From Paraspadella gotoi (lineage: Eukaryota; Animalia; Chaetognatha), in assembly GCA_051294375.1 (NCBI GenBank), contig CM119263.1:3618785-3682784 (forward strand): 64,000 nt of DNA. The letters run 5' to 3'. Positions 31,601 to 63,765 of this stretch are shown here, one piece after another (within the stretch, counting starts at the first letter, position 1; each line of letters opens with the position of its first letter). The notes under the pieces were generated by a model that was not told where the DNA came from, ran no database searches, and was given only the letters and a program-made list of their open reading frames with translations. A program made the position numbers and the translations under genes.

Positions 31601-34209
31601 ATCATTTCATCGTAAATAAAACAAACAAATGCGTGTGATGAGTGGAAAGATGAAGAGAGAGAGAGAAGAGAGAAGAGAGGAGACTGGACCAGTATTTCCC
31701 GCCAACGAAACGCATTATTAGGTCTCTCTCTGTTTATGTAAAGAATAATCAGAATTTTTTAGAAAAAAAATCCACGAAAATCTCGGATGTAAATTTGGTG
31801 ATTTTTGTATTGAGAAAAAAGCGCGGAAATTAAATGGCGATAATAAAAAGTTTTTTAGAAGGAAAAAAAAAGGAGAGAGAGGAGAGAGAGAAGGGAGGAG
31901 AGGGAGAGGAGGAGAGAGGAGAGAGAGAGAAAGAGGAGGGAGAGTGAGAAAGAGAGAGAGAGAGAGGTTTTCCCACCACAGAGACGCATTATTAGGTCAC
32001 TCTCGTTTATATCGGTTATCCGTTGCCTCGCAACGTGCGCGTCGTGAAATTGGGTCTATGTGATTTTTTTTTTTATACACGTACGCGTTATTAGGTCATG
32101 TTCCTCGAATTGTTTACTTGTTGCTCCCAACGACCGAAATCTAGGATTAAGTAAGTTTATTGTATTTTGGGATTTGGTTGAGATAAAATAATAAATGGCG
32201 ATAATAAAAGTTTTTAGAAGGAAAAAAATCCACGAAATCTCGGAAATAAATGGCGATAATAGAAAGGAAAAAAATAAAGAGAAAGAGGAGAGAGACGAAG
32301 AGAGAGAAAGAGAGAAAAAGATTGTTCTTTTTTTAGGGAAGCAAACCAGACGAGGTCAAATTTAATTTTGCATATTTAATTAATTATAAATAGTTATCAC
32401 AACTCAAATAATTTTATTATAAAAAAAGTTAAAAATGATTAAATATTACACTAAAAATATTTATAAATTTAATAAAGTACAATTATCAGAATAACAAAAA
32501 AAGTAATGTTTAATTTGACTATATCTTCTCTTATCAACCTCCTATTTTAGATATAATTTGCCAATTAGTGGGCCAACCGGTCCAAAGTTGCAATAATAAA
32601 TAAAAACACAAAAATTTTTTTTTTTTATAATTGTGGATGCATGCAATTATATTCTTCTGGCGAAAGTGCCTGCATATATTATAGTCACATTAGCTGATTT
32701 ATATGAACATATCATTATTAGTTATTCTACATTTTTTTAAAAAAATATATAAGAGACTGAGAGAGAGACGAGAGAGAGTTAGAGAGAGAGAGAGAGAGCA
32801 GAGAGGAGAGAGAGAGAGAGAGAAAGAAAAAGAAAAACCGAATTCGTTCAATTATATCTCAGATATTAAATTGGGGAATTTGTATTGAAAACAAAAGCGC
32901 GAATAAATGGCGTAATAAAAGTTTTGAGAAGGAAAAAATAATCAGAAATTTTTCAAAAAACGAACGATCCGTACAGAGTAGAGACAGAAAAGACAGAAAG
33001 AAGAGAAAGAGAGACAGAAAGAGAAAAAGAGAGACAAAGAGAAGGAAATGAAAGAGAAAGCTGAAGCCAGTCTGACACATCACTGCAGAACCTGGACTTC
33101 GGTTTTTAAGGGCATTCAGAAAAGCAGCAACTCGACAAATATAGAAAGAAAATTCTATATATAATTTAAAGAAATAAAAGAAGGCAAAAAATATGTAACA
33201 ATTGTTACAATTGCGAAATTTTTCCATTTTTGCCAATCGCAGCTAAAGATTATTTGATTTTAGAAAGTTCTTAAAAAATCCTTTGAGTTCCCATTTTTAT
33301 TAAAAATTAAAACAAATTTTTTGAATTTTCATCTTCAATATTATATACTGCAATATGTAAATTAGATTAAAGCATTTCTATATACTAATTTGCATATTAT
33401 AAGGAGTCTTAATCTCATTTGCATATTGCAGTAAATCATAATTGAAGTGGAAATTCAAACAAAAAATACTTAAATCCAAATTGTAATATGAAATATCACA
33501 GCTATTTCAAGATGAAAAGCCTATATCTAAATTTTTTAACTTACTATGATCGCACACTTTTTGTAAAACTTTATCATAATTCATAATAATTTTATTTTTA
33601 AAAAAAACGGTAAATCACAGCCAAACCTATAAAAGCGTAGAGTAGTTTTTATATATGAAAACAGCGTGACTGACGACGACGACCACGACCGACGACTACG
33701 TCACAAAGAAGCAACCCTAAAACATTATAGAGCCTGACCCGGCTTCGCCGGTCAAGGCTCGATAAAAGAGAAGCGGACTCGTGGTGTCCAAAAGCTCTTT
33801 ACACAATTTTATACTCTGCCATAACAAGGTCATTCATGGTCGGATATTATCAGGTTCATTCTACTGACCACTACGGGTCGTCTTCGTCGTCGCTGTTCAA
33901 ATCATTTGCGTTCCCAATAGCTGAGACCAAAATCTTACTCTCTGATCCATTATTTGATAATTTTGAATTAAAAAACGATAAGTTTTTCGAACACTAAATT
34001 TTGAAAATTAAAATGACAAATTTTTTTCCCACTTTTTCAATATTTGACTTTCCTCTTTTACTGTGTTTCTTATGTGTTGTGGCAAAGAATAAGAAGACGT
34101 TTTGAGTTAAGTTTTTGTTATTGTAATCATGTGTGTTATATTTTGAAACTATTCGGACTATACTTCTATACCTTGTGGTATAATCGATTCTTTTCGTTTG
34201 GTGTAATAA

Positions 34210-34405
34210 TTATTAGAAAGTTTGAAATGAATTTTCAAAACGATTTTATTTTTAATAAAAAACGGACATGTTTCGGCTTAACTACAGCCTTCATCAGCAT
34301 CTAATGCTAATCTAATGCTGATGAAGGCTTGTAGTTAAGCGAAAATGTCCGTTTTTTATTAAAAATAAATCGTTGTTGTAAATTCATTTCAAATTTTTCT
34401 AATAA
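34210..34405. mobile_element. Palindrome with two opposed minimal hammerhead motifs (noisier copy)
   Basis: Same as 35192-35393 with single-base deletions; motifs at ~34261-34301 (-) and ~34314-34353 (+). Confidence 0.7.
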
Positions 34406-35244
34406 ACTTTTATACCATAAATAGGGGGAGACTAACTCAGTAAGTGTGGTAAGAAATTTTGAATTAAGCACCTGCGCTCAAACGAAAATTTAGACATTTT
34501 TTATAAAAAATTTTAATAGACAATTTTTTTTTAATATTACTCCATAATCCATATATTAATTTTTTAAAATTTATTTATAAATTAAGAAAGGCTTAATAAA
34601 GTTTTTTGGGATTTTTGGATTTTAAGATCAGAGTTCAGGTAGCTTGCAAAAAAGTTGTCTGACAAAGTATAATTCTTTTTTCAATTTTTGATCTTAAGTG
34701 TGTGATAAAATTATGAAAACTTATTTATAATCATCATCATTATCATTTTTCGATATTTTATTACTTTTTCTTAATTTTGACCAAGAAAACATTATATTTT
34801 TGAAAGTTGTAGTTTAAATTTTTTATTTATCTCTCTCTTTTTTTGACCACTACGGGTCGTCTTCGTCGTCGCTGTTCAAATCATTTGCGTTCCCAAAATA
34901 GCTGAGACCAAAATCTTACTCTCTGATCCATTATTTGATAATTTTGAATAAAAAACGATAAGTTTTCGAACACTAAATTTGAAAATTAAAATGACAAATT
35001 TTTTTCCCACTTTTTTCAATATTTGACTTTCCTCTTTTACTGTGTTTCTTATGTGTTGTGGCAAAGAATAAGAAGACGTTTTGAGTTAAGTTTTGTTATT
35101 GTAATCATGTGTGTTATATTTTGAAACTATTCGGACTAATAACGTTCTTATTGACCTTGTGGTATAATCGTTTCTTTTCGTTGTGTAATAATTATTAGAA
35201 AAGTTTGAAATGAATTTTCAACAACGATTTTATTTTTAATAAAA

Positions 35245-35286
35245 AACGGACATGTTTCGGCTTAACTACAAGCCTTCATCAGCATC
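35245..35286 (-). ncRNA. Minimal type I hammerhead ribozyme
   Basis: Reverse complement reads gatg-CUGAUGA-a-ggcuu-guaguu-aagcc-GAAA-cauGUC-cguu. Confidence 0.78.
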
Positions 35287-35298
35287 TAATGCTAATCT

Positions 35299-35340
35299 AA
35301 TGCTGATGAAGGCTTGTAGTTAAGCCGAAACATGTCCGTT
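35299..35340 (+). ncRNA. Minimal type I hammerhead ribozyme
   Basis: aatg-CTGATGA-a-ggctt(gtagtt)aagcc-GAAA-catGTC-cgtt: intact core, 5-bp stem II, palindromic ACATGT in place of stem III, 4-bp stem I; predicted cut after 35336. Confidence 0.8.
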
Positions 35341-36452
35341 TTTTATTAAAAATAAAATCGTTGTTGAAAATTCATTTCAAACTTTTCTAATAACTTCTAT
35401 ACCATAAATAGGGGGAGACTAACTCAGTAAGGTGGTTAAGAAATTTGAATTAAGCACCTGCTCAAACGAAAATTTAGACATTTTTTTAAAAAATTTTAAT
35501 AGACAATTTTTTTTAATATTACTCCATAATCCATATATTAATTTTTTAAAATTTATTTATAAATAAGAAAGGCTAAAAATTTTTTTGGGATTTTTGGATT
35601 TTAAGATCAGATTCAGGTAGCTTGCAAAAAGTTGTCTGCACAAAGTATAATTCTTTTTTCAATATTTTGATCTTAAGTGTGTGAAAAATATGAAAACTTA
35701 TTTATAATCATCATCATTATCATTTTTCGATAATTTTATTACTTTTTCTTAATTTTGACCAAGAAAACATTAATATTTTTGAAAGTTGTAGTTAAATTTT
35801 TTATTTAACATTTATGCTCTCTCAGAATCCATAAAAAAGTTAAGATTTATTAAAAAAATTTTTTATCATAATATAGTAATATTGTAATTTTAATAGCAAC
35901 AATGAAAGCATTAAAATCAAACTTTTTTTAAAAATTATTTTTTTACCTAAAGTAGACTTCAAGACTAAAGTTTTGAACCCCCGCCCCTATTGAATTTAAT
36001 TTCATAGTAGATTTCTACCATAAATACCAAAAATAAAGAAAAAGTATTTTGAAAAAAAATATTTTGAGCATTGAGAATTTTAGATCTGGAATAGGGTACG
36101 AATTTAACATTTTCCAAAAAAATTAGCTTGTAGCTATTTGATATTGCTAAATGTTTTTTATTTTAACCCTGAGAATTTTATTGTGCCAATTCTCTTACTG
36201 AATATTATTTTGTCAATAGTTTTTTTGAAATTCTGTTAACATGGCCAAGTGAAGATCGAACCTGAAATTTATCTTGAATTGCAAAAATGTAAATAATATA
36301 ACAGGCCCAAAATTTCATTCCTTTTTTTGAATTCTTTGATTTCACAACAAAGTGGTTCATTTAAAAGTCATTGTAATTTTATTCCTTCGCGCATTCCCTC
36401 ATTTTTCACTCGATCTCGAATTCTTTTCCTACGAAAAATTCCATCCTCCACT

Positions 36453-36886
36453 GTCCCGAACTTCGGGCTGTAGTCCGTCACTAAAGGTGGGTTAGACGCC
36501 CCGTCGCACTTTCTTGTGTTGAGTCAGCAGGGTGGGAGGAGCTCGTGCTACCTACCTCCGGCGCCATAGGTGCTGCTGATTCTCGGACGAGTAACGGGGT
36601 ATGAAATACTACCGCTACACATCCCCCCTAGGCATCACACAACCGCGCAAGTGTGATGGCTATGATGCTCGCGTTGTGCCCAAGTACTCCTAGGAGGGGC
36701 TGCCTATTCCTGCTCCCGTCTTCACACACGATAATCAAGGGAAGAGGTGTGTTACCATGCCAGCGTGTTCGTGTGGGCTCACCAATGAGAAAGACGATAC
36801 CGCGAGCAGTTTACCGTCCGTTGAACACAAGGTCCCGAACTTCGGATCGGGCTGTAGTCCGTCACTACAGGTGGGTTAGACGCCCC
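36453..36886 (-). mobile_element. Candidate twister-ribozyme retrozyme / circRNA copy: 384-nt unit with ~50-nt direct terminal repeats
   Basis: GC-rich island in AT-rich DNA; repeats at 36453-36502 and 36832-36886; many internal hairpins; twister motif in the repeats. Confidence 0.62.
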
Positions 36887-36889
36887 ATC
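36824..36889 (-). ncRNA. Twister ribozyme-like motif (3' part intact; the 5' part is supplied by 36494-36520 on circularisation)
   Basis: Minus strand reads GA-UGGG-GCGUC-U|AA-CCC-AC-C-[UGUAGU gacgg ACUACA]-G-[CCCGA UCCG-AA-GU UCGGG]-AC-CUUGUGUU. T1 is UCCG:(C/U)GGG, T2 is AC:GU and P5 is AACACAAG:CUUGUGUU; P2 pairing is imperfect. Confidence 0.65.
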
Positions 36890-38576
36890 ACCGTTTTTTT
36901 TTATGTCTACATAGTAAAGCGTAGTGAAAGTCACAAATGAAAATTCTAATTGTTAATTATGAACAACGTACTACAAGTGAACATAAATTTATAAAAAATT
37001 TCAATTTTCGCATTAGGGTATATTTACATATCTTAAGAAATCCTAAAATTTCAAAATGGACTTTTTAATTTTTATCTTTTATCAGTTGGGAACCCTTCAT
37101 GGATTTCGGCTCATTAATTCCAATATCAAGGTAGAGGCGAGCCATCACCAAATGGTATTCCTGCATATTTTTTTAAAGATATATTTTTATGTTTATGTTA
37201 AACAGCCCATTATTAAGATTAAGGAAATTTATTAAGGTTTTGTAAATAATTTGTAATTGGTAATTTTGTAGATTGTAATTTTTAAATAATTTAAACTAGT
37301 TGTTAAATAATTGGTTAAGTTAAAATTAAGTTAACTAATAAAAGTTCAATAATAAGTTAAATCAAAAAGTTAAATAATTTTTTACATAATGTTATTGATA
37401 TTGTTATTAATATTATTTAAAATGGTTTAATTTTTTTATTTTTTATTTTTATTGGGAATTATCATGTTAAGTTAAATTTAAACTTTTTACTACGCTTTAC
37501 TGCATACACTACGTCACGCTAATTTTCATCGCGTTCGTTCGCGAGTAACACCATAAAAATCTTTACTTTAAATATTTTATAAATATATTTTATAAGTATA
37601 TCATTAATTTGAGAACTACTACTACTACTTTAATTCAATTACTATTCTATGTTTATTTTTTTATCTAGCAGTAAAATTGGCGAAAAAAGACAATTTTAGA
37701 CGTGTTATTGATTTCATTAAAAAAATTTTACATCATGAAAAATCCCTATTAATGGTCTAATCAATGGCGTATCTGAATTATAGTAATGTTTAGAAATGTT
37801 TGAGTAATGATTTTTTATTTATTTTTTTAATTGTAAATCTTGATAATCTATATAATGCTTCATCTACTGGTGTAAATAAATTTTAATAATTTTAAGTAAT
37901 TCATGAGTAATGATTTTATTAATGATTTTCTTTTTTTTAAAGATTTATTTTTTTACTGAAGATGAGAGGAAAAAAAAAATTCAATGAGAAATGGTACATA
38001 TTTTTTGGGTGTCGCTCGCGACGGACACAGGCTATTTTTCGAATATAATAATCATCGTTTAACAGACAAAATAAACTGGAATGCAACTTGATCTAAAATA
38101 CGGAACCGAATATTAAACAATGAAATACTACTGTCAACAAGCAAATTTGGATTTAGCATCTGGAACATTTTAATGAATTTACGTAGGTTTGTTCTCACAA
38201 AAACTTCATTAATTTTAGATTCACGAGTTCGTTCGAGAATATTAAATTAAAATATATTATTATTTGTTTATATTATTATATTTATTTATATTCATTATTA
38301 TTATAATATTATTATATTATATTATTATCTTTTATATTACAATGCGACCATGATCGCAAATGCTACATCACAAAAGTTTTATTTACAAATGTGGGGAATT
38401 CCACGTTTTACTGTTTGTTATGGATATGATTTGACTGTTCTAGTTTAACCTTGTGAGACTGTTTCTTCTAACTGTATGAACTTCGTGTTGCTGTTATGAG
38501 TTGAGAAAATGATTGTTGTGGAATGTGGCGCTCGTGTTATGGTTATGACTCAACGGTTGACGACGAATGATGAAAT

Positions 38577-39509
38577 TCATCTACGCTGTTGCTGGACTTG
38601 CTGCTGTCGCCAACGCTTCGCCGCCCCCACTCGCCTCTCGATGACTCGGATGCGTTGATTAACCATTAACTCTTCAGTTTTCGTCGTCGGAAGACGAACG
38701 AACCCTTTTGGGAATCTAAATGCATTAAGCATAAAATAACCGAGGTTGTTGCAATTTACGTGCACGTGGTCGACGGAATGAAAAAGCTTGTGGGCAAAAT
38801 CCCCGACCGGCGCCTGGACCGCACCCAGATCTTTTTGCATCGGAGGGACGCCGCGGCAGCAAATCAAGAAATTGAGGCTTGGTTGCTCGAAAACCTGCGG
38901 GACTCGGGCATTTGTCGTCGAGGCTAGCGACGCTGGGAATCTGGGCGCCGCGGGTTGAGGCAACAGGTCCGGCGTCACCTCCGGCTGCGGAGGGATGTCG
39001 GCGACGATAGCCGCCAGTTTGATAATGTCGTCGACCCCCGACGAGTTTGGTAGCGGCTTCGCCGGGGCGGCGGGCGCCGGTCTGCTCGCGCCGCTCGGAA
39101 TAACGTTTTCCTCAGCGAAGAACCGGTCGAGTTCCGAGTCAAGATCGTCAGGAGCGGCGTTGGGAACAAAAGCGGCATTCACAGGCGGCGCCGCCTGGGG
39201 GACCGGCGTCGCCTGGTGTTCGCTGCTATTCAGGACATCATTTTCTCTAAAGAAAACGTCGAGTTCCTCATCCAGTTCGTTGCGAACCGGATTGGCATCG
39301 GGCGAGGAAGCCACGGCAACTCGAGGCTTCTTCTGAGCGGGAGATTCCGGAGACGAATCAGGACCTCGTTTCTTGCAGCTCTTCTGTGTGGGTGTGTTTG
39401 AACTTGCGGTGGATGTTGGGGAAATGGATGTTGGTTGGTGCCCAAACCAAAAGGGCACCTCGAGGAGGTCCTGGCTCCAGGTAAAGGAAACAGAAGTGGT
39501 GCTCTCCAT
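38577..39509 (-). CDS. Intronless 310-aa orphan protein: disordered Pro/Ala/Ser-rich, NLS-like motif, two acidic motifs, small C-terminal domain
   Basis: Uninterrupted GC-rich ORF in AT-rich flanks with ATG start; AATAAA at 38378-38383 (-); promoter motifs upstream. Confidence 0.8.
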   Translation of the reverse strand: MESTTSVSFTWSQDLLEVPFWFGHQPTSISPTSTASSNTPTQKSCKKRGPDSSPESPAQKKPRVAVASSPDANPVRNELDEELDVFFRENDVLNSSEHQATPVPQAAPPVNAAFVPNAAPDDLDSELDRFFAEENVIPSGASRPAPAAPAKPLPNSSGVDDIIKLAAIVADIPPQPEVTPDLLPQPAAPRFPASLASTTNARVPQVFEQPSLNFLICCRGVPPMQKDLGAVQAPVGDFAHKLFHSVDHVHVNCNNLGYFMLNAFRFPKGFVRLPTTKTEELMVNQRIRVIERRVGAAKRWRQQQVQQQRR

Positions 39510-46696: not shown

Positions 46697-46754
<58 letters not shown>

Positions 46755-47644
46755 AGGGAGAGAGGAGAGAGGAGGGAGAGAGAGAGGGAGGAGAGAGAGA
46801 GACAATCCACTAATCCACTTCTCTTTTCCTCCTCAGCTTCCACCTCCTCATCCTTCTATTATCTCGAATCAGCTGCTCTTCACAAAAATGATTTTTTCTT
46901 TCTTCGCGATTTCAACTCAAACGTCTCGAGTCACGAATCGGGCGACGCCGCAGCCGCAGCCGCCGATGCCGACGCCGACACCGCCGCCGACTCTGCCGAC
47001 GCCCCCTCATACAAATTAGACGTGCGGCGGCGCCAACTCCAGCGACAACAACAGCAACGACAACAACAGCAGCGGGGAGTCTCCGCTGTTGACGGCGATG
47101 GCAGGGAAAGGCTTCGTGGAGTCGAGATGGCGCTGGTAAGTTTGGTTGACCGAGGTAAGTCATATTTAAGAATTTAAAAGAGATTGAACGAGCATGTAAC
47201 AAAAAAGCAAAGTTAAATAAAACACATATGTCGTTGAAATATCGTGTCAAACATTGGCCGCTTGAGTTCTCTCGCTTGCGGTCTCTCTCTCTCGCTTTCG
47301 TCCCATTTTACCAACTGACGAACGCTCGACTCTCCTCGCAGAAGCGTCCCGTCACCGGTCATCTTCGTCCGTCCTCATCGTCGCTCGCCTCCAGCCTCAC
47401 GACACAACGACGTCTTCGACGACGACGAAAACGAGAAACGCGATGAAACCGCCGCAAACCAAAACCGCCTAAAATCCCCAGAAGCCCCAGGGATCTGAAG
47501 AGAGGAGACAAGGGTCACATCCCCAAGAGGGTGGGCGCACTCACAAACTCGGGGAGTACATGTTAAAGGGTGTCGAGTGGGCGTGCCGCGAGGGGGCGGG
47601 ATGGGGGGGGAGAGAGAAGTGACGCCATCTTGAGTCCGGAGTGA
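46574..47644 (+). CDS. Last three exons of an unknown gene, copy 1
   Basis: Same exon structure as 57639-58874. Confidence 0.45.
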
Positions 47645-48790
47645 GAAGTTGATTCATTCGAAGGACGAAAAAAGTCAAATGAAGATCGAAAAGACGGAGA
47701 ATGAAGATGTATCTTTGAGGGATGGGAGAAATGGATTTTTGGGAGGCGTCTGTTATCGATCAGATATGCATGTGCTCCCTATTGCAACTTGCCATTGCAT
47801 TTATATTTTAACTAGCTATCCTGTGCTTTGAATAGAACGAAATGATGAATCTCTAATCGTTTCTTTCAAATAAAAATAGAAAGTTGAATGATTTTTTTAA
47901 AATTTTAATGGGAAGCTAAAAAAATACTCTTCTGCAGATAAGTTTTTAACGGACAATTTAATAACGACAACTTACTATATTTTTCCTTTTTTAGAAAAAA
48001 AATCCTTTTATGAACTTTTTTATAACTTATTCTTTCTTTCTTCTTTCTTTCCCTTTTCTTATCTTTCTTCTTCTTCTTTTTTCTTTTCTTTCTTTCTTTC
48101 TTCTTTCTCTTCTTTCTTTCTTTCCTACTTTCCCTTTCGTTCTGTTCCGCTCTTCATAAACGCGCTTGAACTATTATAAAGTCGGACTCCTTTCTTTCCC
48201 ACTTTTCTCCCTCTTCTCTCCTCTCCTCCTCCTCCTTCCTCCTCCTCCTCCTCTCTCTCTCCTCTCTCTATTCTTGTTCCATCCCGGGTCACCCAGACAC
48301 TGTTTTTTCCCTTAGAGAATGCTCCATGTGTGGACTAGAGATTTATTAACTTTTTCCATTTATTAGTTTATCATCCTCCCTTTTATATTTTAATATTCAT
48401 ACTTGGTTAGCTCAATACGATTCGAACGGAGACGACGACGCCGAATATAACAACGAGACGACGACGAAGTCTTTGTACTTTGTGACCGTAGTGGTCAGAA
48501 GAATGGCCGTTCGTATCCAACAGAATGACCTTTGTTATGTCTGACCTTTTTCAGCATGAAATACGTATTTTTAATATATGTTTTCTATTCTCATAAAATC
48601 ACGTCTCGAATTTTTCTCGTAAATTCTTCTTTTAGAGATATTACGCGGCCATATCTCGCAGTTTAAACTGTTAACTTCGCGCAGTTCGGGGAAGAGAACT
48701 ATATGTTCACCGCAACTACGCCTGCGGCGGCTTCGCCGGATATCATTCCCGGCAAAGCCCGCCCAATTCTTGACGGGGACGAGAATGGCC

Positions 48791-48830
<40 letters not shown>

Positions 48831-49625: not shown

Positions 49626-50786
49626 ATGAACGCATTTCCGCGCGGCGCGGGTGTCATGTTTGACGTCATGCGTCGCCACATCTTGAAGAATCCAGAAGTG
49701 TATTGGCAAATGGATGCGAAAAGGATGCCGACGAAACCGATTGGTAGAAACGGGGGTTGATTGTAATGATGATAAGAAGTTGGGCATGGCTAAAGTCTCA
49801 AGTATAACTTAAGTTTAGATATAAACGAAAACGGGTAGAGTTCTAACAAGCAGAAACTTCAGTGAGAGAGAGAGAAGATGAGAGAGCAGGAGGAGAAGCA
49901 GAAAAGAGAGAGAGAGAGAGAGGGAGAGAGAGAGACAATCCACTAATCCACTTCTCTTTTCCTCCTCAGCTTCCACCTCCTCATCCTTCTATTATCTCGA
50001 ATCAGCTGCTCTTCACAAAAATGATTTTTTTCTTTCTTCGCGATTTCAACTCAAAACGTCTCGAGTCACGGATCGGGCGACGACCGCAGCCGCAGCCGCC
50101 GATGCCGACGCCGACACCGCCGCGCTCTGCCGAGCCTCAGCCCTACAAATTAGACGTCGCGGGCGCCAACTCCAGCGACAACAACATAGCAACGACAACA
50201 ACAGCCAGCGGAGGAGTCTCCGCTGTTGACGGCGATGGCAAGGAAAGCTTCGTGAGGTCGGAGATGGCGCTGGGTAAGTTTTGGTTGACGCGAGGTAAGT
50301 CATATTTAAGAATTTTAAAAAGAGATTTGAACGATGCATGTTAACAAAAAAGCAAAGTTAAATAAACACATATGTCGTTGAAATCTCGTGTCAAACATTG
50401 GCCGCTTGAGTTCTCTCGCTTGTGGCTCTCTCTCTCGCTTCGTCCCATTTTACCAACTGACGAAGCTCGTATCTCTCCTCGCAGAAGCGTCCCGTCACGC
50501 GTCATCTTCGTCGTCCTCATCGTCGTCGCCTCCAGCCTCACGACACAACGACGTCTTTCGACGACGACGAAAACGAAAACGCGATGAACCGCCGCAACCA
50601 AAACCGCCTAAAATCCCCAAGAAGCCCCAGGGACTGAAGAAAGTGAGACAAGGGATCACATCCCCAAGAGGGTTGGGCGCACTCACAAATCCTGCGGGGA
50701 GTACATGTAAGGGTGTCGAGTGGGCGTGCCGCGAGGGGGCGGGATGGGGGGGAGAGAGAAGTGACGCCATCTTGAGTCCGGAGTGA
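49626..50786 (+). CDS. Last three exons of an unknown gene, copy 2
   Basis: Same exon structure as 57639-58874. Confidence 0.45.
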
Positions 50787-51957
50787 GAAGTTGATTTCAT
50801 TCGAAGACGAAAAAAGTCAAATGAAGATCGAAAAGACGGAGAATGAAGATGTAATCTTGAGGGATGGGAGGAAATGGGATTTTTGGGAAGCGTCTGTTAT
50901 CGCATCTAGATATTGCATCTCCCTATTGCAATCGCCATTGCATTTATATTTTAACTAGCTATCCTGTGCTTTGAATAGAACGAAATGATGAATCTCTAAT
51001 CGTTTCTTTTCAAATAAAAATAGAAAGTTGAATGATTTTTTAAAATTTTAATGGGAAGCTAAAAAAATACTCTTTCTGCGATAAGTTTTTAGAGACAATT
51101 TAATAACCAACTTACTTATTTTTCCTTTTTTTTAGGAAAAAAATCCTTTTTATGAACTTTTTTATAACTTACTTTCTTTCTTTCTTTCTTTCCCTTTTTT
51201 CTTTCTTTCTTCTTCTTTCTTCTTTCTTTCTTTCTTTCTTTCTTTTTTCTTCTTCTTCTTTCTTTCCTACTTTCCCTTTCGTTGTTCCGCTCTTCATAAA
51301 CGCGCTTGAACTATTATAAAGTCGGACTCCTTTCTTTCCCACTTTTCTCCTCTCTCTCCTCCTCCTCCTCCTCCTTCCTCCTCCTCCTCCTTCTCCATTC
51401 TCCGTCCTCCGTATTTTGATTCCATCCCGGAGTCACCCCGAACATGTTTTTTCCACTTAAGAAGAATTGCCATGTGTGGATAAGATTTATTAACTTTTTC
51501 ACATTTATTGTTATCAATCTTCACCCTTTTTATATTTTAATATTTCTATCACTTGTGTAGACTCAATCGATTCGAACGGAGACGACGACGCCGAATATAA
51601 CAACGAGACGACGACGAAGTCTTTGATACTTTGTGACCGTAGTGGTCAGGAAGAATGGCCGTTCGTATCCAAACAGAATGACCTTGTTATGTCTGACTTT
51701 TTCAGCATGTAAATACGTATTTGTAATATATGTTTTCTATTCTCATAAAAATCACGTCTCGAATTTTTCTCTAAATTCTTCTTTTAGAGATATTACGCGG
51801 TGCCATTAGTCTCGCAGTTTTAAACATCGTTAACTTCGCGCAGTTTCGGGGAAGAGAACTATATGTATCACCGCAAAGTGACGCCCTGCGGCGGCTTCGA
51901 GGGGATATCATTCCCGCAAACCCCGCCCAATTCTTGACGGGGACGAGAATGGCCCTA

Positions 51958-51992
<35 letters not shown>

Positions 51993-53309
51993 ACTCTCTC
52001 TCTACTCTAGTCGTCTCTCTCTCACAAACGTTCTTTTTTTTTGGGGCTTCAAAGTATCTCAATGGCGATAACAATGAGTGGTCACAGATTTGAATTTTTT
52101 TTGCTTTCTTTATATGAATTTTTTAATCTATACGATAATATTGAGACAGAACAAAGTTAAAAAAAAAAGAGAAGAAAAAAGAAAGAAAAAATTATCGGAA
52201 AAAAAAAGAAAAGGAAAGAAAAGAATGAAAAAGATAATTAAAGAAGAAAGAAAGAAAGACAGTATAAGTATATTGTAAGTGTAAAAAGTGTGTTATTTAG
52301 CTGGATATACAGGCTTTCTGATGGCAATAGTTATGCTGATGAAAGACTGAATTAAAATCAAACAAACAGACAAACAAATGTCTTTTTTCAATTAAAACTC
52401 ATAAAGATGCTAAAAGAGAAGAGAGAGAGAGAAAGAGAGAGAAACAGGGAGCGACAAAATAATACATTATGTAATGTACGACAAGAGACTAAGTTTAAAC
52501 TAATGGTGAATTTTAACAATATTCTCAATAATCAAATAAAAATAGTAATGAAAGGAAAGAAAGTTTTTAATGGAAATGATACATTTTTATGAGGATAGAT
52601 AAGTTAAATTGAAAAATTTAAAGAATTAAGATAGGAATGAATCTAAATGCAAATAAAATATTATTTTGGAAATTCGTGATTGTAAGCGTTCTCTCTCATG
52701 TTTCCAGTTAATAAAGTTTTTTATCAACAAGACTCCCATGATGATGATTCACGGCGGGGACAGGGCTTCAAACGTCAATCCCCACAAAATAGTGGCGGGA
52801 TTCTCCGCCGTGGATAAAGGCAGAAGGCTTCAAACAGTAATCCCCGTAAAAATAGGGTAGGATTTCCCTCAAAACAGAGATGAAAAGAAAGGCAGTTTCT
52901 CGCGTTGAACAGAAAGAGGGCTGTCAGTTGAAACTTTCCCCGTTATAGCCAGGTTCAAACTGCGCTCTTTATGTGACGGTGCGTCATATACTTCTGTCTT
53001 TTTTAAGTCACCGACAATACCAAGATTTTCTTGATTTTGCTTATTTTTCTAACAAAAAATACATTTTTTCCTCTAAAGTAGCTTTTTCTTCTCTCGTATT
53101 TCTCACCTAAGTTTTTCCTGTTCTCCCCCTTTCCTCCCCTCTCTGGCCCCTTCCCCGTGTCTCTCTACCCCCTTTCTTCCCCCTCTTCCACTCCCCACGC
53201 TCCGCACCTCTCACCCTCCTCCCCACTCATTTCTCCATCGTTTATTATTCTTACCTCTTTGTCTCTTTGTCTTTTGGATTATTACTGACTTACAACTTTT
53301 CTCAAGCCC

Positions 53310-54010
53310 ATATGCATCGAAAGGATCAGCGATCAAACCCGTTCCCTTCGCTCGCTCCAATTTCGGCGTTGGTTTCCTCCTCCAGAACTGATGGGACTCC
53401 TGCGAGGTGGCCGGCAGGCTGACGGGCGGCAGGCGGCTGGCTGTCCGGTCACAGCAGCAGGGCGTTTGAGGTTTAAATCTCGAAGAAATCATGGGCGAGA
53501 ATTGAAGCCGGTTATCGTATGGTCGGATCCTTGGGCGCCACGCCTACCAATGCCTTTCTCGCAAACGAATGCCACGGCCTGGCAAAATCGACCGCGATTA
53601 ACTTCTCAAATAAGACGCCACGTCGCCACGGTCACGTTTGCTACGAACGCAATTCGGAATAATTTTGTCAGCAACGGTCATTTGAACTCAAAGCCGTCTG
53701 GGCAAATGTACTTATCTTCCACGCGGGTATACGAACCGATTGCGTGGTTTCTGAAATTAAGTTTGGCTATTGCCGTTGTCTTAGCGGCAAGCTTGTCATC
53801 AAGTTGGATTCGTCATCCTTGCCACGGACGAGTCGCAACCCTTTCCAAGGCCCAGACGGCTCTGTCCCACGTCTCAGCGGCGCCCTCTCGCTCCCCTGAA
53901 CTCGGGCCTTCGTTCTTCGACTTCCACTCGAAGGAAAACAAAGAGCTTAAACGAAAGTCGCCGCTAATTGCTTATGGCGTCGATGGAGGAGGAATCATTG
54001 GAGCGTCTGG
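53310..54010 (+). CDS. Noisy copy of the putative exon at 61322-61980
   Basis: Colinear, insertion-rich copy. Confidence 0.3.
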
Positions 54011-54589
54011 TGGAGGAAAAAGGAAAAAAGGAGAAGCGGGGAGATACGGCAAAATCAAAGAAAGAGGAATTATAGTGAAAAAAAAGCGGAAAAAAAGAAT
54101 AGGGAGGAGAAAGAAAATAATAGAAAAGAGAATAAAGTGGAGGACAAAAACAAAAAGGAAAAGGAGGAAGAAGGAAAAAATAGGAAAGAGAAATAGTAGT
54201 GAAGGAAAAAGCGAAATAAAGAGAAAAGAAGAGAAAGAAAGAAGAGAGAAAAGGAAAGAGAATATGAGTGGAGGAAAAAAAGGAAAAGGAAAGGAAGGAA
54301 GCGTGGAGGAAGCTCAAGAAAAAGAAAAAGAGAAAAGTGGAGTACAAAAGGAAAAGGAAAGGAGAAAAGAAGCGAAAAAAGGAAGAGAATTATAGGTGAG
54401 AGAAAAGAGAGAGAAATGAGAAAGGAGAGAGAGAAAGTGTGGAGGAATGGTTAAAGATAAGAGAAGGGAAAGAGAGGGAGAGGTTGAGCGAAGAAAAATA
54501 ATTAATAAGAGAGAAAAAGAAATAAGTAGGAGAAAAAGAAGGAAAAATAAGCTTAAGCAAAAAAGAAAGGAAAGTGAAGGAAGAGAAAA

Positions 54590-55019
54590 ACAAGAACAGG
54601 GTAATTCAAATGTTATTAATGTTGCGCCGCAGTGACCATAGCACGTGTCGATTATTTAACATTGTATGACATTATTCATGACATTGAGACGTGAACCCGT
54701 GACATGATATGACTACATGGACTACCATAACCTTTCTTGGCCCGTTGCTAGATTTACTGACAAGACACTCATTCGGAATTTGTTTTTGCCTCCTCTCTCG
54801 TCTTTATTTCCTGAAGGTGGGTGCTAGCAGTCCCTTAAGATTGAGGTTGTTTTTTCTCGTCTTAACAAATGATCAAACAACTATATTCAAGTTATGAAAT
54901 TTTAACGTAAGTGGGACAGACCGACGGACACATACCAATGGAACCGACCGATCGACGACAACCGGGACCGAAAAATTGACTTACTGACGTTGTTCCGCGA
55001 GTATTTCGCGGTCGCAACT
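54590..55019. mobile_element. Small HINE-like element (second family); copy at 62500-62891, inverted termini at ~46101-46185 and ~49220-49290
   Basis: Starts ACAAG in an A-run; sub-terminal gttgcgccgc, (GACC/GACG)n microsatellite, terminal hairpin gttgttccgcgagtatttcgcggtcgcaact plus an A-run. Confidence 0.68.
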
Positions 55020-56109
55020 AAAAGAGAAAGTTAAAGGGGAGAGAGGATATTTGATTCAATAAAGGAGACGGGAAGGAAAAAAGCGTAAAACAAGTAAATG
55101 GAAAGAAGCATGGAATAGGGAGGAAAGTAAAGCAAGGAAGAGCAAGGTGAAGCAAGTTTAGAATAAAAATGAAAATAAGAGGAAGGAAAAGATATAGAAA
55201 TATGAGAAAGCAGAAATATGTGAGAGGAATATCATAACGACGTCGGGCGAGTTTTGATTGGTCAGGAAATTTATCCAATAATATTTTCTTTCTGAAGCGA
55301 CTCTTATCTTCGTTTTAAAAACTTTGGCGATAAATAGGGCTTCTTCGATAATTACAAATTAAGTAGAGAGTAGTGAAGAATAGATTAAAATGTATTATTT
55401 TTATGGACAATATTTTAGTAATATTATCAAAATATGTTGGTCTCTATTTGATTTGATAGGAGAAGAATTTCGCTTTTGATCTTCCGATGTGATTGAAATA
55501 CACTTTTTTGTTTTTTATTCTTTAAGCGGACAATCGAAAAAATGAGAGCTAGATTTTAACTATAGGTTATTTTATATATATCTACTGTCATTATAAAGTG
55601 AAAAACAAATAGCTCTCCTAGGGCCGGCTATATTTATTTTTAAAAAATAAGGAAAAGGCATTGGTTTATTTTAATCAGATTTAAGTCAAGTTTGGTTTTT
55701 TGAATATCTCATACAAAAGTGGTCACAAAAAAAGAGATAAAAAAAAAAAAATTTTTTTTTTGTGTGACTCATTCGCGCTTAACCTTTTTTTATTAGATTC
55801 TCGCTTTTCTCTATCATCAAGTTGTCTCGTAAGGTTTAATTTTTTTTAAGCTTGAGTGGAAATTAGTAATTTTAGGACGTATTCATGTACTTTTACAGCC
55901 GGGTGAGAGAGAGAGAGAGAGATTTATGAGAGAGAGAGGAATGAGTAGAGAGATGAGCCAGAGAGAAAGAATAGATGATAGATCTGAAAGACGAGAGAGA
56001 GAGAGAGAGCGAGAAATGAGAGAGAGAGAGAGAAAATATCGACAAAGACTTGAGTCTATCGACGAAGGCCTGTCAAGAGACGATCAGGTGCGTTCACGAC
56101 GGAACGGGA

Positions 56110-56300
56110 AGGCGATAGAAAGGAGAACAGGCGTTAGAGGAGAGGGAGAGAGAGACAGGCTTTAGAGGGAGAGGAGACGGCGATAGATGGGAGAGGGAGA
56201 CCAGACGATAGAGGGAGAGGTAGACAGGTGATAGAGGGAGAGGTGAGACAGGCGATAGAGAGACAGTGATAGAGGGGAGCGATAGAGGGAGGACAGTGAG
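56110..56300. repeat. ~22-24-bp purine-rich minisatellite (GAGAGGGAGACAGGCGATAGAGG); copy at 63840-64000
   Basis: Read directly. Confidence 0.8.
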
Positions 56301-57638: not shown

Positions 57639-57951
57639 ATGAACCGCATTCCGCGCGGCGCGGGTGTCATGTTTGACGTCATGCGTCGCCACATCTTGAA
57701 GAATCCGGAAGTGTATTGGCAAATGGAAGCGAAAAGGATGCCGACGAACCGATTGGGTAGAGAGAGAGAGAGAGAGAGAGAATTGAATTGTATTATTGAA
57801 TTGTATTAAAGAAACGGGCTTTGGGCTACATTGTGCCCCTAAAAGCTACATCAATTTACAAAACGATATTCACAAGTTGAAAAGTATTTAAAGATATAAA
57901 CGAAAATCGGGTAGAGTTTTTATCCTAAACATGTTTCATGAAATCTTTCCA

Positions 57952-58008
<57 letters not shown>

Positions 58009-58874
58009 ATCCACTAATCCACTTCTCTTTTCCTCCTCAGCTTCCACCTCCTCATCCTTCTATTATCTCGAATCAGCTGCTCTTCACAAAAATGATTTTT
58101 TCTTTCTTCGCGATTTCAACTCAAACGTCTCGAGTCACGAATCGGGCGACGCCGCAGCCGCAGCCGCCGATGCCGACGCCGACACCGCCGCCGACTCTGC
58201 CGACGCCGCCCTCTACAAATTAGACGTCGGCGGCGCCAACTCCAGCGACAACAACAGCAACGACAACAACAGCAGCGGGGAGTCTCCGCTGTTGACGGCG
58301 ATGGCAGGGAAAGGCTTCGTGAGTCGAGATGGCGCTGGGTAAGTTTGGTTGACGACGAGGTAAGTCATATTTAAGAATTTTAAAAAGAGATTGAACGATG
58401 CATGTTAACAAAAAAGCAAAGTTAAATAAAACACATATGTCGTTGAAAATCGTGTCAAACATTTGGCCGCTGAGTTCTCTCGCTTGGTCTCTCTCTCGCT
58501 TCGTCCCATTTTACCAACTGACGAATCGCCTCCTCGCAGAAGCGTCCCGTCACGGTCATCTTCGTCGTCCTCATCGTCGTCGCCTCCGCCTCACGACGAC
58601 AACGACGTCTTCGACGACGACGAAAACGAAAACGCGATGAAACCGCCGAAACCAAAACCGCCTAAAATCCCCAAGAAGCCCCAGGGTCTGANNNNNNNNN
58701 NNNNNNNCCCAAGAAGCCCCAGGGACTGAAGAAAGGAGACAAGGGTCACATCCCCAAGAGGGTGGGGCGCACTCACAAACTCGGGGAGTACATGTAGAGG
58801 GTGTCGGTGGGCGTGCCGCGAGGGGGCGGGATGGGGGGGGAGAGAGAAGTGACGCCATCTTGAGTCCGGAGTGA
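57639..58874 (+). CDS. Last three exons of an unknown gene, copy 3 (exons ~57639-57756, 58041-58338, 58540-58874)
   Basis: MNRIPRGAGVMFDVMRRHILKNPEVYWQMEAKRMP | STSSSFYYLESAALHKNDFFFLRDFNSN..SRDGAG | SVPSRSSSS..DVFDDDENENAMKPPKPKPPKIPKKPQGLKK..DAILSPE*. Branch-point-like ctaat/ctgac, pyrimidine tracts with cag, a gtaagt donor and compatible phases. Confidence 0.55.
57781..57955 (-). mobile_element. ~175-bp insert inside a (GA)n tract, possibly a 5'-truncated non-LTR retrotransposon tail
   Basis: Present in copy 3, noisy in copy 2 (49749-49864), absent in copy 1 (46698-46803); the minus strand ends in the repeat tail aatacaattcaataatacaattcaatt. Confidence 0.4.
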
Positions 58875-59300
58875 GAAGTTGATTCATTCGAAGGACGAAA
58901 AAGTCAAATGAAGATCGAAAAGACGGAGAAATGAAGATTATCTTTGAGGGATGGGAGAAATGGGATTTTTGGGAGAGGCGTCTGTTATCGCATCTGATAT
59001 TGCATCTCCCTATTGCAACCGCCATTGCATTTATATTTTAACTTAGCTATCCTGTTGCTTTGAATAGAACGAAATGATGAATCTCTAATCGTTTCTTTTC
59101 AAAATAAAAATAGAAAGTTGAATGATTTTTTTAAAATTTTAATGGGAAGCTAAAAAAATACTCTTTCTGCTGATAAGTTTTAAGAGACAATTTAATAACA
59201 GACAACTTACTAATTTTTCCTTTTTTTTTTAGAAAAAAAATCCTTTTATGAACTTTTTTTATAACTTACTTTCTTTCTTTCTTTCTTTCTTTCCCTTTTT

Positions 59301-59380
<80 letters not shown>

Positions 59381-60042
59381 TCCTACTTTCCCTTTCGTTT
59401 GTTCCGCTCTTCATAAAACGCGCTTGAACTATTATAAAGTCGGACGTCCTTTCTTTCCACTTTTCTCCCTCTTCTCTCCTCCTCCTCCTCCTCCTCCTCC
59501 TCGTCATTTTCTTGATATCCATCCCGGGTCACCCCACATTTTTTCCCTTAGAGAATCTCCCATGTGTGGATTAATGATTTATTAACTTTTTCCATTTATT
59601 AGTTATCATCATCCCTTTTTATATTTTAATATTCATACTTTGGTAGCTCAATCGATTCGAACGGAGACGACGACGCCGAATATAACAACGAAGACGACGA
59701 CGAAGTCTTTGTACTTTGTGACCCGTAGTGGTCAGGAAGAATGGCCGTTCGTATCCAAACAGAATGACCTTGTTATGTCTGACCTTTTTCAGCCAATGTA
59801 AATACGTATTTGTTAATATATGTTTTCTATTCTCATAAAAATCACGTCTCGAATTTTTCTCTAAATTCTTCTTTTTAGAGATATTACGCGGGCCATATCC
59901 TCGCAGTTATTAAAATCGTGTAAACTTCGCGCAGTTTCGGGGAAGAGAACTATATGTTCACCGCAAATACGCCCTGCGGCGGTCTTCGGGGGATATCATT
60001 CCCGCAAATCCCCGCCCCAATTCTTGACGGGGCGAGAATGGC

Positions 60043-60107
<65 letters not shown>

Positions 60108-61321
60108 ACAAACGTTCTTTTTTTTGGGCTTCAAAGGTATCTCAATGGCGATAACAATGAGGGTCACAGATTTGAATTTTTTTTGCTTTCTTTATATAAT
60201 TTTTTAATCACTACAGATAATATTGACAGAAAAAGTAAAAAAAAAAAGAAGAAAAAAGAAAGAAAAAATTATGGAAAAAAAAAGAAAAAGGAAAGAAAAG
60301 AAGAAAAAGATAATTAAAGAAGAAAGAAAGAAAGACAATATAGTATATTGTAAGTGTAAAAAAGTGTGTTATTTAGCTGGATATACAGCTTTCGATGGAA
60401 TAGAGTGCTGATGAAGACTTGAATTAAAATCAAACACAACAACAAACAAATGTCTTTTTCTCAATTTAAAACACAAAGATGCTAAGAGAGAGAGAGAGAG
60501 AGAGAGAGAAGAGAGAGAAACAGGGAGAGACAAAATAATACATTATGTAATGTACGACAAGGAATAAGTTTAAACTAATGGTGAATTTAACAATTATTCT
60601 AATAATAAATAAATAGTAATGAAAGGAAAGAAAGTTTTTAAATGTGAAATGATACATTTTTATGAGGGATAGATAAGTTAAATTGAAAAATTAAGAATTA
60701 AGATAGGAATGAATCTAAATGCAAATAAAATATTATTTTAAATTAGGATTGTTAAGGTTTCTTATGTTTCAGTTAAAAATTTTTTATAACAAGGACTGCC
60801 CATGATGATGATTCACGGCGGGGACAGGGCTTCAAACGTCAATCCCCACAAAAATAGTGGCGGGGATTCTCCGCCGTGGATAAGGCAGAAGGCTTCAAAC
60901 AGTAATCCCCGTAAAAAATAGTGGTAGGGATTCCCCAAAACAGAGAGAAAAAAGGCAGTTTTGCGTGAACAGAAAGAGGGTGCAGTTGAAACTTCCCCGT
61001 ATAGCCAGGTTCAAACTGCGCCTTATTGGACGGCGTCATACTTGTCTTTTTAAGTCACCGCAATACCAAGATTTTCTGATTTGCTTATTTCTAACAAAAA
61101 TACATTTCTTTCTCTAAAGTAGCTTTTTCTTCTCTCTTATTCTCACCTAAGTTTTTCCTGTTCTCCCCCTTTCCTCCCTCTCTGCCCCCTTCCCCTTCTC
61201 TCTCCCCCCTTTCTTCCCCCCTCGTCCACTCCCCACTCCCCTACCCTCCTCCCCCTCATTTCTCCTTTTATTATTCTTCCTCTTTTGTCTTTTGTCTTTT
61301 GATTAATGACTTCACTTTCAG

Positions 61322-63677: not shown

Positions 63678-63713
<36 letters not shown>

Positions 63714-63732
63714 AAGAGAGAGAAGAGAGAGA

Positions 63733-63765
<33 letters not shown>

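What the first reader, a model, noticed from the sequence alone, without database searches (positions are those of the whole stretch)
36453..36886. Candidate twister-ribozyme retrozyme: genomic ~1.1-mer copy of a 384-nt circular RNA
Seen: a GC-rich non-coding island with direct repeats at both ends. On the minus strand the repeat reads U|AA-CCC-AC-C-P3(UGUAGU/ACUACA)-G-P4(CCCGA/UCGGG) closing the 8-nt loop UCCG-AA-GU, with GA-CGGG (left copy) or GA-UGGG (right copy) just upstream. Established: twister ribozymes have a U|AA cleavage site, an 8-nt L4 forming pseudoknots T1 (4 bp, partner preceded by GA) and T2 (RC:GY), and optional P3/P5. Here T1 (UCCG:YGGG), T2 (AC:GU) and an 8-bp P5 (AACACAAG 36513-36520 : CUUGUGUU 36824-36831) all fit. 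Inference: the predicted cuts (36878/36877 and 36494/36493) define a 384-nt monomer, the size range of metazoan non-LTR retrozymes, which are mostly described with hammerheads. Caveat: P2 does not pair well (CCC vs GUGC), so this copy may be mutated or mis-sequenced.
Basis: partly seen in the sequence, partly recalled or inferred. Interest (0 to 1): 0.88.

Follow-up and report, generated by a model that had tools for sequence, protein, structure and literature searches.

The report
Twister ribozyme inside miniature LTR retrotransposon
This is a broken copy of an abundant, tiny, non-coding jumping element whose terminal repeats carry a tRNA-like promoter and a predicted twister self-cutting RNA, so intact copies would likely be cut into a ~400-base RNA that is circularised and copied back by a retrovirus-like helper, a design described so far (in the papers searched) only in plants and only with a different ribozyme.

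Summary
The repeat and the twister-like core are real, but the element is not a non-LTR retrozyme. Public sequencing contigs of the same organism show a high-copy family with fixed ends at 36619 and about 36786. These ends are TGT...ACA, with a polypurine tract just inside one and a CsRn1-type tRNA-Trp primer-binding site one base inside the other. So the stretch is a miniature LTR retrotransposon (TRIM): an LTR of about 220-235 bp, a 166-bp interior, and many solo LTRs. Each intact LTR holds a tRNA-derived segment, as in Helenus TRIMs, followed by a complete P5-permuted twister; no circle is needed to form it. The window copy is truncated in both LTRs, has lost the B-box segment and the downstream L4 loop, and is probably dead. 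Best model: Pol III transcription, cleavage in both LTRs, ligation to a circle, reverse transcription by a Gypsy helper, as in plant LTR retrozymes but with twister. Against it: P2 is weak across the family, Rfam gives no hit, the circle folds no better than shuffles, and there are no RNA or cleavage data. The host kingdom is not established; an animal is likely.

The parts
36786..36893 (-). 3' part of the upstream (5') LTR, truncated about 10-16 nt before the predicted cut; LTR end at about 36786 (family ends ...ACA; the window differs at 36788 and 36790)
   Evidence: loose ends into AT-rich flanks before 36791 (11 contigs in X5, 12 in X6); other letters at 36788/36790 in nearly all laid depth; depth step at about 36790-36800
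36834..36889 (-). Twister-like core, upstream copy: GA 36889-88, T1' 36887-85, P1 hairpin 36884-79, U|AA 36878-76 (predicted cut 36878/36877), P2 5' CCC 36875-73, T2 AC 36872-71, P3 36870-52, P4 36851-34 with L4 36846-39
   Evidence: P3 and P4 pair probabilities 0.96-1.0
36824..36831 (-). 3' arm of P5
   Evidence: partner arm is contiguous in natural LTR contigs (table 5c)
36775..36784 (-). Primer-binding site TGGTGAGCCC, 1 nt after the LTR end; matches the CsRn1-clade tRNA-Trp PBS
   Evidence: only match in the window, 0.06 expected; motif as printed in PMC2582038
36620..36785 (-). Internal non-coding region, 166 bp, lower copy number than the LTR
   Evidence: depth table; X9 record 28 bridges LTR-interior-LTR (36583-36815)
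36622..36629 (-). Polypurine tract AGGGGGGA, 2 nt before the LTR start
   Evidence: other interiors join behind 36628 (table 7)
36453..36619 (-). 5' part of the downstream (3') LTR, starting TGTAG at 36619, truncated 41 nt after the predicted cut
   Evidence: loose ends behind 36619 in all 7 runs laid
36533..36566 (-). tRNA-derived segment (tRNA positions 8-41, A-box/D-arm and anticodon-loop like). The window has a 4-nt duplication and lacks the following B-box/T-arm segment that other copies carry
   Evidence: 14 of 15 textbook positions with the 4-nt insertion allowed; 4 such sites in both strands of the window; tables 4 and 7
36513..36520 (-). 5' arm of P5 followed by the AAA linker and the P2 3' strand (36509-36506)
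36453..36509 (-). Twister-like core, downstream copy (predicted cut 36494/36493), broken by a 5-nt deletion in L4 and by loss of the P5 3' arm
36494..36877 (-). Predicted cut-to-cut monomer, 384 nt in this copy (LTR 218 + interior 166); about 400 nt in copies that keep the B-box segment
   Evidence: inference

Best explanation
The stretch is a doubly truncated copy of a high-copy miniature LTR retrotransposon whose LTR carries a tRNA-derived segment and a predicted twister ribozyme, and intact copies likely work as a twister-type LTR retrozyme. Shown: LTR ends, PBS, PPT, short non-coding interior, excess of LTR over interior, tRNA-like register, twister core motifs. Inferred steps: (1) Pol III starts at the tRNA-like segment of the 5' LTR and, meeting no T4 run inside the element, reads through both twisters. 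(2) Each twister cuts at U|AA, releasing a unit-length RNA of about 400 nt with 5'-OH and 2',3'-cyclic phosphate and no terminal R repeat. (3) P5 holds the ends together and a host RtcB-type ligase closes the circle. (4) tRNA-Trp primes at the PBS, and the RT/integrase of a CsRn1-type Ty3/Gypsy helper copies round the circle, primes the second strand at the PPT and integrates LTR-interior-LTR DNA with a probable 4-bp duplication. Recombination leaves solo LTRs. The window copy itself is probably dead.
For: Fixed family ends: contigs leave the window at 36619 into variable flanks (38, 19, 22, 6 contigs in X1, X5, X6, X9; 37, 32, 24, 6 in X2, X7, X8, X9) and before 36791 (11 and 12 contigs in X5, X6). 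At these independently fixed ends stand TGT, CA, an 8-purine tract and a 10/10 CsRn1-type PBS (rough joint chance 3e-10; PBS motif from PMC2582038). Flanks begin ATAT in 6 of 7 runs, and a subset begins CTAG in 3 runs; both are palindromic 4-mers. Summed depth in X1 is 30-40k over 36801-36858 against 1.3-1.5k over 36627-36684 (not a copy number). One 125-nt contig has depth 494 in X5 beside contigs of depth 7-22. Natural contigs run from the P5 3' arm through the core to the P5 5' arm (joints 36886 to 36533/36552 and table 5c; loose ends before 36463 with intact L4 in 15, 6, 8, 5 contigs). Against the published S. mansoni twisters (table in PMC8501958) both pseudoknots change on both sides (T2 GC:GC to AC:GU; T1 CCC:GGG to CCG:CGG), while UAA, GA, the L4 U and AA and the AAA linker are kept. 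In one search the only listed substitution of 3% or more inside 36463-36505 is in the P3 loop. tRNA register: 14 of 15 positions in the window, and GGTTC falls at the T-arm position in the family-only segment (read by hand table 7). P1 is dispensable and P2 imperfections are tolerated in tested natural twisters (PMC11662667).
Against: No Rfam twister match at E<=10 in three scans of the region, and none at gathering score in the window; neither window copy is complete, so this is a weak test. P2 has a 3-nt 5' strand instead of 4; it forms 2 pairs in the window copies and in the common variant with G at 36508, and at best 3 pairs with a bulge in the majority loose-end lines of X1 and X5 (agreement only 0.63 and 0.61). 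The circular monomer is no more stable than shuffles (z -0.8 and -0.7; 64-67% paired), below the >70% reported for retrozyme RNAs, and P5 has only 0.07 probability in that ensemble. The tRNA-like segment misses the conserved A at positions 14 and 58, so the promoter may be weak. No paired target-site duplication was seen, and the window copy has none. No helper element, no transcript and no cleavage were observed. Host kingdom is not established.
Confidence: 0.55

Rival explanations
1. A Helenus-type TRIM that carries a dead or passenger twister (for example from a tRNA-head SINE or RTE 5' end that once inserted into the LTR) and replicates by ordinary R-mediated strand transfer from a linear RNA.
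For: Weak P2 in all variants seen; no Rfam hit; unremarkable circle fold. Kojima proposes SINE insertion into an LTR as the origin of such TRIMs (PMC10886601). P3 opens with the same 6 nt as S. mansoni twisters, which sit at RTE 5' ends.
Against: Compensatory changes in both pseudoknots; no common change at UAA, GA, T1' or T2 listed; no T4 run or AATAAA/ATTAAA in the element to end the RNA otherwise, whereas Helenus LTRs seen in the supplement passages often have a T-run after the tRNA part.
Confidence: 0.25
2. The twister is active but serves as an end-former for a linear RNA: only one LTR copy cuts in practice, defining a 3' or 5' end and leaving a short R repeat, with no circle.
For: No terminator or poly(A) signal inside the element. 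Cassandra uses a short 18-bp repeat. Twisters trim the 5' end of Perere-3 RNA (PMC8501958 abstract).
Against: A start at the tRNA-like segment lies upstream of the P5 5' arm, so both LTR copies would be transcribed whole and both should cut (inference from positions).
Confidence: 0.12
3. One reading: a non-LTR (Penelope-mobilised) retrozyme or pseudo-LTR derivative, here a 1.1-mer copied from a circle.
For: Monomer size 384 nt fits 150-450 bp. The window copy is 1.14 units without LTR ends. Earlier scan notes report P5-type twister folds in Naiad Penelope terminal repeats (unchecked).
Against: PBS, PPT, TGT...ACA and two fixed ends; depth 10-20 times higher over the LTR than over the interior rather than even over the unit. 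Non-LTR retrozymes lack PBS/PPT.
Confidence: 0.05
4. The twister resemblance is chance in a GC-rich LTR.
For: No covariance-model hit; the descriptor was relaxed after seeing the sequence; 0.067 hits per shuffled window.
Against: 2 of 20,000 element shuffles; P3, P5 and the AAA linker also fit though the descriptor did not ask for them.
Confidence: 0.03

Closest known systems
Plant LTR retrozymes (Cervera, Urbina & de la Pena 2016, PMC4918200; passages, Discussion)
   Same: Non-coding LTR element with PBS, PPT, solo LTRs and one self-cleaving ribozyme in the middle of each LTR; cut-to-cut monomer; Ty3/Gypsy helper proposed.
   Different: Twister fold instead of type III hammerhead; LTR about 220-235 vs 300-400 bp; interior 166 vs 300-600 bp; monomer about 400 nt vs about 700 or more; tRNA-Trp (CsRn1-type) PBS; tRNA-derived segment in the LTR; monomer not unusually self-paired; host probably an animal.
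Helenus / TRIMp3 (Kojima 2024, PMC10886601; Results read; supplement motif searches)
   Same: TRIM under 1 kb with a tRNA-like A/B-box segment in the LTR; animal members have 4-bp duplications and Gypsy helpers; some wasp families use tRNA-Trp with the PBS one base after the LTR.
   Different: No ribozyme is described (the word occurs once, in a reference title). Ten short motif searches of the supplement found neither this family's PBS nor a twister-type L4 in an LTR context (line breaks can hide matches). Here a twister, not a T-run, follows the tRNA-like part.
Twister ribozyme, type-P5 permutation with P3 (Roth et al. 2014, not read; features from PMC8501958, PMC6154101, PMC11662667)
   Same: UAA, GA, 8-nt L4, both pseudoknots, P4, optional P3 and P5, AAA linker.
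   Different: 3-nt P2 5' strand with mismatch or bulge; 1-2 bp P1 hairpin; no Rfam hit on the incomplete window copies.
CsRn1 clade of Ty3/Gypsy elements (PMC2582038; passages, section)
   Same: PBS motif, TGT...ACA ends, PPT, LTRs of 146-407 bp, 4-bp duplications.
   Different: Those are autonomous 4-6 kb elements; this one has no gag-pol. No helper was found here.
Metazoan non-LTR retrozymes (PMC7229834; bioRxiv 10.64898/2026.07.22.740005) and twister-bearing RTE Perere-3 (PMC8501958)
   Same: Ribozyme-bounded monomer of a few hundred nt; twister in an animal retroelement (Perere-3).
   Different: Those lack LTR, PBS and PPT; retrozymes there use type I hammerheads in tandem arrays, and Perere-3 has one 5' twister on a coding LINE.
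Engineered tandem-twister circular-RNA expression (mentioned in PMC7229834; the name Tornado and its Pol III/RtcB details are recalled, paper not read)
   Same: Two twisters flank the unit, and ends are left ready for ligation.
   Different: That system is synthetic; this would be a natural, mobile version.

Membership tests
TRIM (non-autonomous LTR retrotransposon) | Two LTRs with TG...CA ends around a short interior, total under 1 kb | tested here: met
   Family ends at 36619 and about 36786; X9 record 28 bridges both junctions; the window holds truncated parts of both LTRs
TRIM (non-autonomous LTR retrotransposon) | PBS next to the 5' LTR and PPT next to the 3' LTR | tested here: met
TRIM (non-autonomous LTR retrotransposon) | 4-5 bp target-site duplication | tested here: inconclusive
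   Flanks start ATAT or CTAG at one end and end ..AT at the other, but the two flanks of one copy could not be paired; none at the truncated window copy
TRIM (non-autonomous LTR retrotransposon) | No coding capacity for mobility | tested here: met
   No RT, gag or integrase family among 106 ORFs scanned; one weak PhyH match on the opposite strand
Helenus / TRIMp3 | tRNA-derived A and B boxes in the LTR | tested here: met
   5' half in the window; GGTTC in register in the family-only segment (read by hand); degenerate at positions 14 and 58; ARAGORN finds nothing in the window, which lacks the B-box part
Helenus / TRIMp3 | Pol III transcription | not testable with these tools
   No raw RNA reads
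Twister ribozyme | U|AA in L1 and GA with the general-base G | tested here: met
Twister ribozyme | 8-nt L4 on P4 with pseudoknots T1 and T2 | tested here: met
   Met in the 36889-36834 copy and in family contigs; not met in the 36509-36453 copy (deletion)
Twister ribozyme | 4-bp P2 | tested here: not met
   3-nt 5' strand; 2 pairs in window copies, up to 3 with a bulge in some family lines. Imperfect P2 is tolerated in tested twisters, so this lowers membership more than function
Twister ribozyme | Match to Rfam twister covariance models | tested here: inconclusive
   No hit, but no complete natural copy was available as a searchable source
Twister ribozyme | Self-cleavage at U|A | not testable with these tools
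   Bench assay needed
LTR retrozyme (Cervera 2016) | Type III hammerhead in each LTR | tested here: not met
   No hammerhead match; a twister fold stands in its place
LTR retrozyme (Cervera 2016) | Highly self-paired monomer (>70% paired) | tested here: not met
   64-67%, z about -0.8, on a damaged copy
LTR retrozyme (Cervera 2016) | Abundant linear and circular monomer RNA | not testable with these tools
   Only contigs were available
Metazoan non-LTR retrozyme | Tandem units without LTR, PBS or PPT, type I hammerhead | tested here: not met

The most novel reading that the evidence does not exclude
The first animal LTR retrozyme and the first twister retrozyme: a Pol III-driven TRIM that releases and circularises its own RNA with two twisters (a natural counterpart of engineered tandem-twister circular-RNA expression) and is copied from the circle by a CsRn1-type Gypsy helper, arising independently of the plant hammerhead retrozymes.
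Probability: 0.45. Interest if true: 0.87.

Novelty: new variant of a known kind. Interest (0 to 1): 0.72.

Why it matters
Retrozymes are currently split into plant LTR forms with type III hammerheads and animal non-LTR forms with type I hammerheads (bioRxiv 10.64898/2026.07.22.740005). An LTR element with a twister, a tRNA-Trp PBS and a tRNA-like promoter would break that split and show that ribozyme-driven circularisation was invented again with another ribozyme, polymerase and helper. It would give eukaryotic twisters a concrete role in LTR elements, join the Helenus and retrozyme lines, and offer a compact system to test whether a circular RNA can replace the R repeat in LTR reverse transcription. 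I found no such element in ten full-text searches; Repbase, Dfam, subscription journals and the CHiTA supplement were not visible.

Tried and rejected
No whole genome is held, so copies could not be read whole. Rfam: no twister or hammerhead match. No second copy in the window. Pattern scans: viral contigs 0, 4 and 1 hits, metagenome contigs 0 and 4, genome contigs 0; all 9 loci failed the twister descriptor and were dropped as chance. No RNA holder listed. X9 is only guessed to be RNA and also covers the flanks, so it was not used for expression. Tables were cut (31 substitution rows, and 427 and 194 loose-end rows, not shown), so invariance of 36825-36886 is not established. Host identification failed: Pfam on 106 ORFs, two homologue searches and one atlas search gave nothing usable. 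An apparent P5 covariation between window and family was rejected because it rests on a likely window error at 36519. A target-site duplication round the window copy was sought and not found. HDV-like, hammerhead and twister-sister readings were inspected by eye against recalled consensus motifs and rejected. Helitron and MITE readings were rejected because PBS and PPT sit at the ends. PMC3286476 and PMC12471100 passages added nothing specific. The sequence look-up among earlier scan findings was empty.

Full report
Observation. The region 36453-36889 is a GC-rich island in AT-rich, repeat-rich eukaryotic DNA. It has a direct repeat at its ends (88% over 58 nt, E 2.6e-15; spacing 384) and no other copy in the window. 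On the minus strand the 36889-36834 copy reads GA, UGG, a GGCGUC hairpin, U|AA, CCC, AC, a 7-bp P3, a 5-bp P4 and the loop UCCGAAGU. A descriptor asking for GA, T1, UAA, T2, P4 and L4, but not P2 or P5, hits only here; shuffles gave 4 loci in 60 windows and 2 hits in 20,000 element shuffles. I allowed a 3-nt P2 after seeing the sequence. The other copy (36509-36453) lacks 5 nt of L4. Rfam gave no twister match.

The family. No genome is held, so I used public runs. Nine runs of one organism in three studies hold part of the stretch; I laid 7 of them (X9 twice). All are contigs, so depth is not a copy number. The locus itself is real: single-copy-depth contigs in X2 and X8 match 36450-36553 with 0-1 other letters and two 1-base gaps, which also shows small errors in the window. 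Depth is very uneven. In X1 it is 30-40k over 36801-36858, 21-33k over 36540-36597 and 1.3-1.5k over 36627-36684. Contigs leave the window at 36619 into unrelated flanks in all 7 runs (38, 19, 22, 6; 37, 32, 24, 6 contigs) and before 36791 in the two runs shown (11 and 12 contigs, whose last loose letters place the end at about 36786). Others jump from 36886 back to 36533-36568. So the common family member is a dispersed unit of about 220-235 bp that runs, on the minus strand, from 36619 through the repeat to 36786. The middle 166 bp is rarer but multi-copy: one 125-nt contig has depth 494 in X5, and one X9 contig spans 36583-36815 at depth 63 against 2-8 for most neighbours. My rough reading is hundreds of LTRs and tens of interiors per genome.

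It is an LTR element. At those ends, fixed by the contigs and not by motifs, the minus strand shows TGTAG at 36619, preceded 2 nt earlier by AGGGGGGA; at the other end the family reads ...ACA (the window differs at 36788 and 36790), followed after one base by TGGTGAGCCC. That 10-mer is the tRNA-Trp primer-binding site printed for CsRn1-clade Ty3/Gypsy elements, which also have TGT...ACA ends and 4-bp duplications (PMC2582038, passages, section). It occurs once in the window, with 0.06 expected; the rough joint chance of the four signals is 3e-10. Flanks begin ATAT in 6 of 7 runs and CTAG in a subset of 3 runs, which fits an integrase preference for palindromic 4-mers, but I could not pair the two flanks of any copy. 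No mobility protein was found among 106 ORFs. This is a TRIM with many solo LTRs. The window copy starts about 10-16 nt before the cut site of the 5' LTR and stops 41 nt after that of the 3' LTR, with no duplication around it; how it lost both ends is unexplained.

A tRNA-like segment. From 36566 the minus strand matches 14 of 15 textbook tRNA positions 8-37 (positions recalled) once a 4-nt duplication is skipped, which nearly all laid depth lacks (table 4); only 4 sites in both strands of the window score as high. Other copies carry a further 16-20 nt that the window lacks (loose ends before 36552 in 17, 14, 11 contigs, agreement 0.81-0.86). By hand count, GGTTC then falls at the T-arm position, with 8 of 9 recalled positions met. 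Positions 14 and 58 miss their conserved A. This is the hallmark of Helenus TRIMs, whose LTRs keep TRGCY, YGG and GGTTC and whose animal members use Gypsy helpers, some with tRNA-Trp (PMC10886601, Results read). The element has no run of four T on either strand and no AATAAA or ATTAAA on the sense strand.

The ribozyme. Both P5 arms lie within one LTR: an X1 contig runs from the core into the P5 5' arm (table 5c), and 15, 6, 8 and 5 contigs continue from the core into an intact L4 and the 3' arm. So each intact LTR holds a linear P5-permuted twister directly behind the tRNA-like segment. Against the S. mansoni twisters tabulated in PMC8501958 (section read), UAA, GA, the L4 U and AA and the AAA linker are kept, both pseudoknots change on both sides, and P3 opens with the same six letters. 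In one search the only listed substitution of 3% or more within 36463-36505 is in the P3 loop. The weak point is P2: its 5' strand is 3 nt, giving two pairs in the window copies and in the common 36508 variant, and up to three G-C pairs with a bulge in the majority loose-end lines of X1 and X5 (agreement 0.63, 0.61). A large test of natural twisters found P1 dispensable and P2 imperfections tolerated, but pseudoknot mismatches harmful (PMC11662667, passages and sections 33, 35, 38; supplement unreadable). Activity is therefore plausible but untested. The window copy has a truncated upstream ribozyme, a downstream one without T1, and no B-box in the LTR that remains; it is probably dead.

Mechanism. 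By analogy with plant LTR retrozymes (PMC4918200, passages, Discussion), cleavage in both LTRs would leave a unit-length RNA without the R repeat that LTR reverse transcription needs, and circularisation would replace it. I infer Pol III initiation at the tRNA-like segment, cleavage at both U|AA sites, ligation helped by P5, tRNA-Trp priming and integration by a CsRn1-type helper. None of these steps was observed. Against the model, the circular monomer folds no better than 60 shuffles (z -0.8 minus, -0.7 plus; 64-67% paired) and P5 has probability 0.07 in that ensemble. Plant retrozyme circles also hold their ribozyme in a blocked fold, and this copy is damaged, so I weigh that as moderate. 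The main rival is a Helenus-type TRIM with a passenger twister (0.25); next is an active twister that forms only one end (0.12).

Comparison and novelty. A July 2026 preprint still divides retrozymes into plant LTR forms with type III hammerheads and animal non-LTR forms with type I hammerheads, and does not mention twister (10.64898/2026.07.22.740005, passages). Twisters are reported at RTE 5' ends (PMC8501958; PMC7761336 passages) and in viroid-like circles (10.1101/2022.07.19.500677; PMC12542633; passages). Reviews read as passages (PMC6765202, PMC5680766, PMC7229834) and one section (PMC6154101) name no twister in an LTR. Kojima's Helenus paper describes no ribozyme, and motif searches of its supplement did not find this family. 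Ten full-text searches found no twister-bearing LTR element. Roth et al. 2014 and the engineered tandem-twister paper were not read. Scans of viral, metagenome and prokaryote collections found no relatives, so generality is unknown. The host is probably an animal, inferred from the PBS type only; direct attempts failed.

Verdict. Observation partly confirmed; interpretation partly supported. The element is a TRIM with high confidence and carries a twister-derived fold with good confidence; that it replicates through a twister-made circle is about even odds. New variant of a known kind; interest 0.72.

Noticed in passing
window 36644-36745 (+), frame starting 36632: A 33-residue stretch antisense to the interior matches Pfam PhyH (E 7e-5, just above the curated cut-off; PHYHD1 E 0.8 in PDB). 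A 1-base deletion at 36689 in most X5, X6 and X9 depth breaks the frame. Probably chance; a captured host fragment is not excluded.
   Followed up: partly
window 36628-36620: Some contigs share the LTR start and PPT but continue into different interiors (table 7), so other subfamilies or a helper may share these ends. An X9 interior carries a 24-nt insertion behind 36757.
   Followed up: no
window 36870-36864 (-): P3 opens with the same six letters as most S. mansoni twisters in the table of PMC8501958; chance or a hint of common origin.
   Followed up: no
window 36279-36394 and 36917-37003: Both flanks of the element are themselves multi-copy repeats (depth).
   Followed up: no
window 33865-34829 and 34844-35807: A tandem duplication of about 970 bp (95%), each unit with a long foldback (112-nt arms, 93%, at 35174-35411) that gives sub-threshold miRNA-model matches; likely a MITE. 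The copies differ mostly by short indels, which suggests an error-prone assembly.
   Followed up: no
window 49817-56270 / 57892-64000 and 46724-48830: Large segmental duplications at 86-91% identity.
   Followed up: no
window 38580-39509 (-) and 5216-5749 (-): A 310-residue ORF and a 178-residue ORF with no Pfam family and no homologue found.
   Followed up: partly
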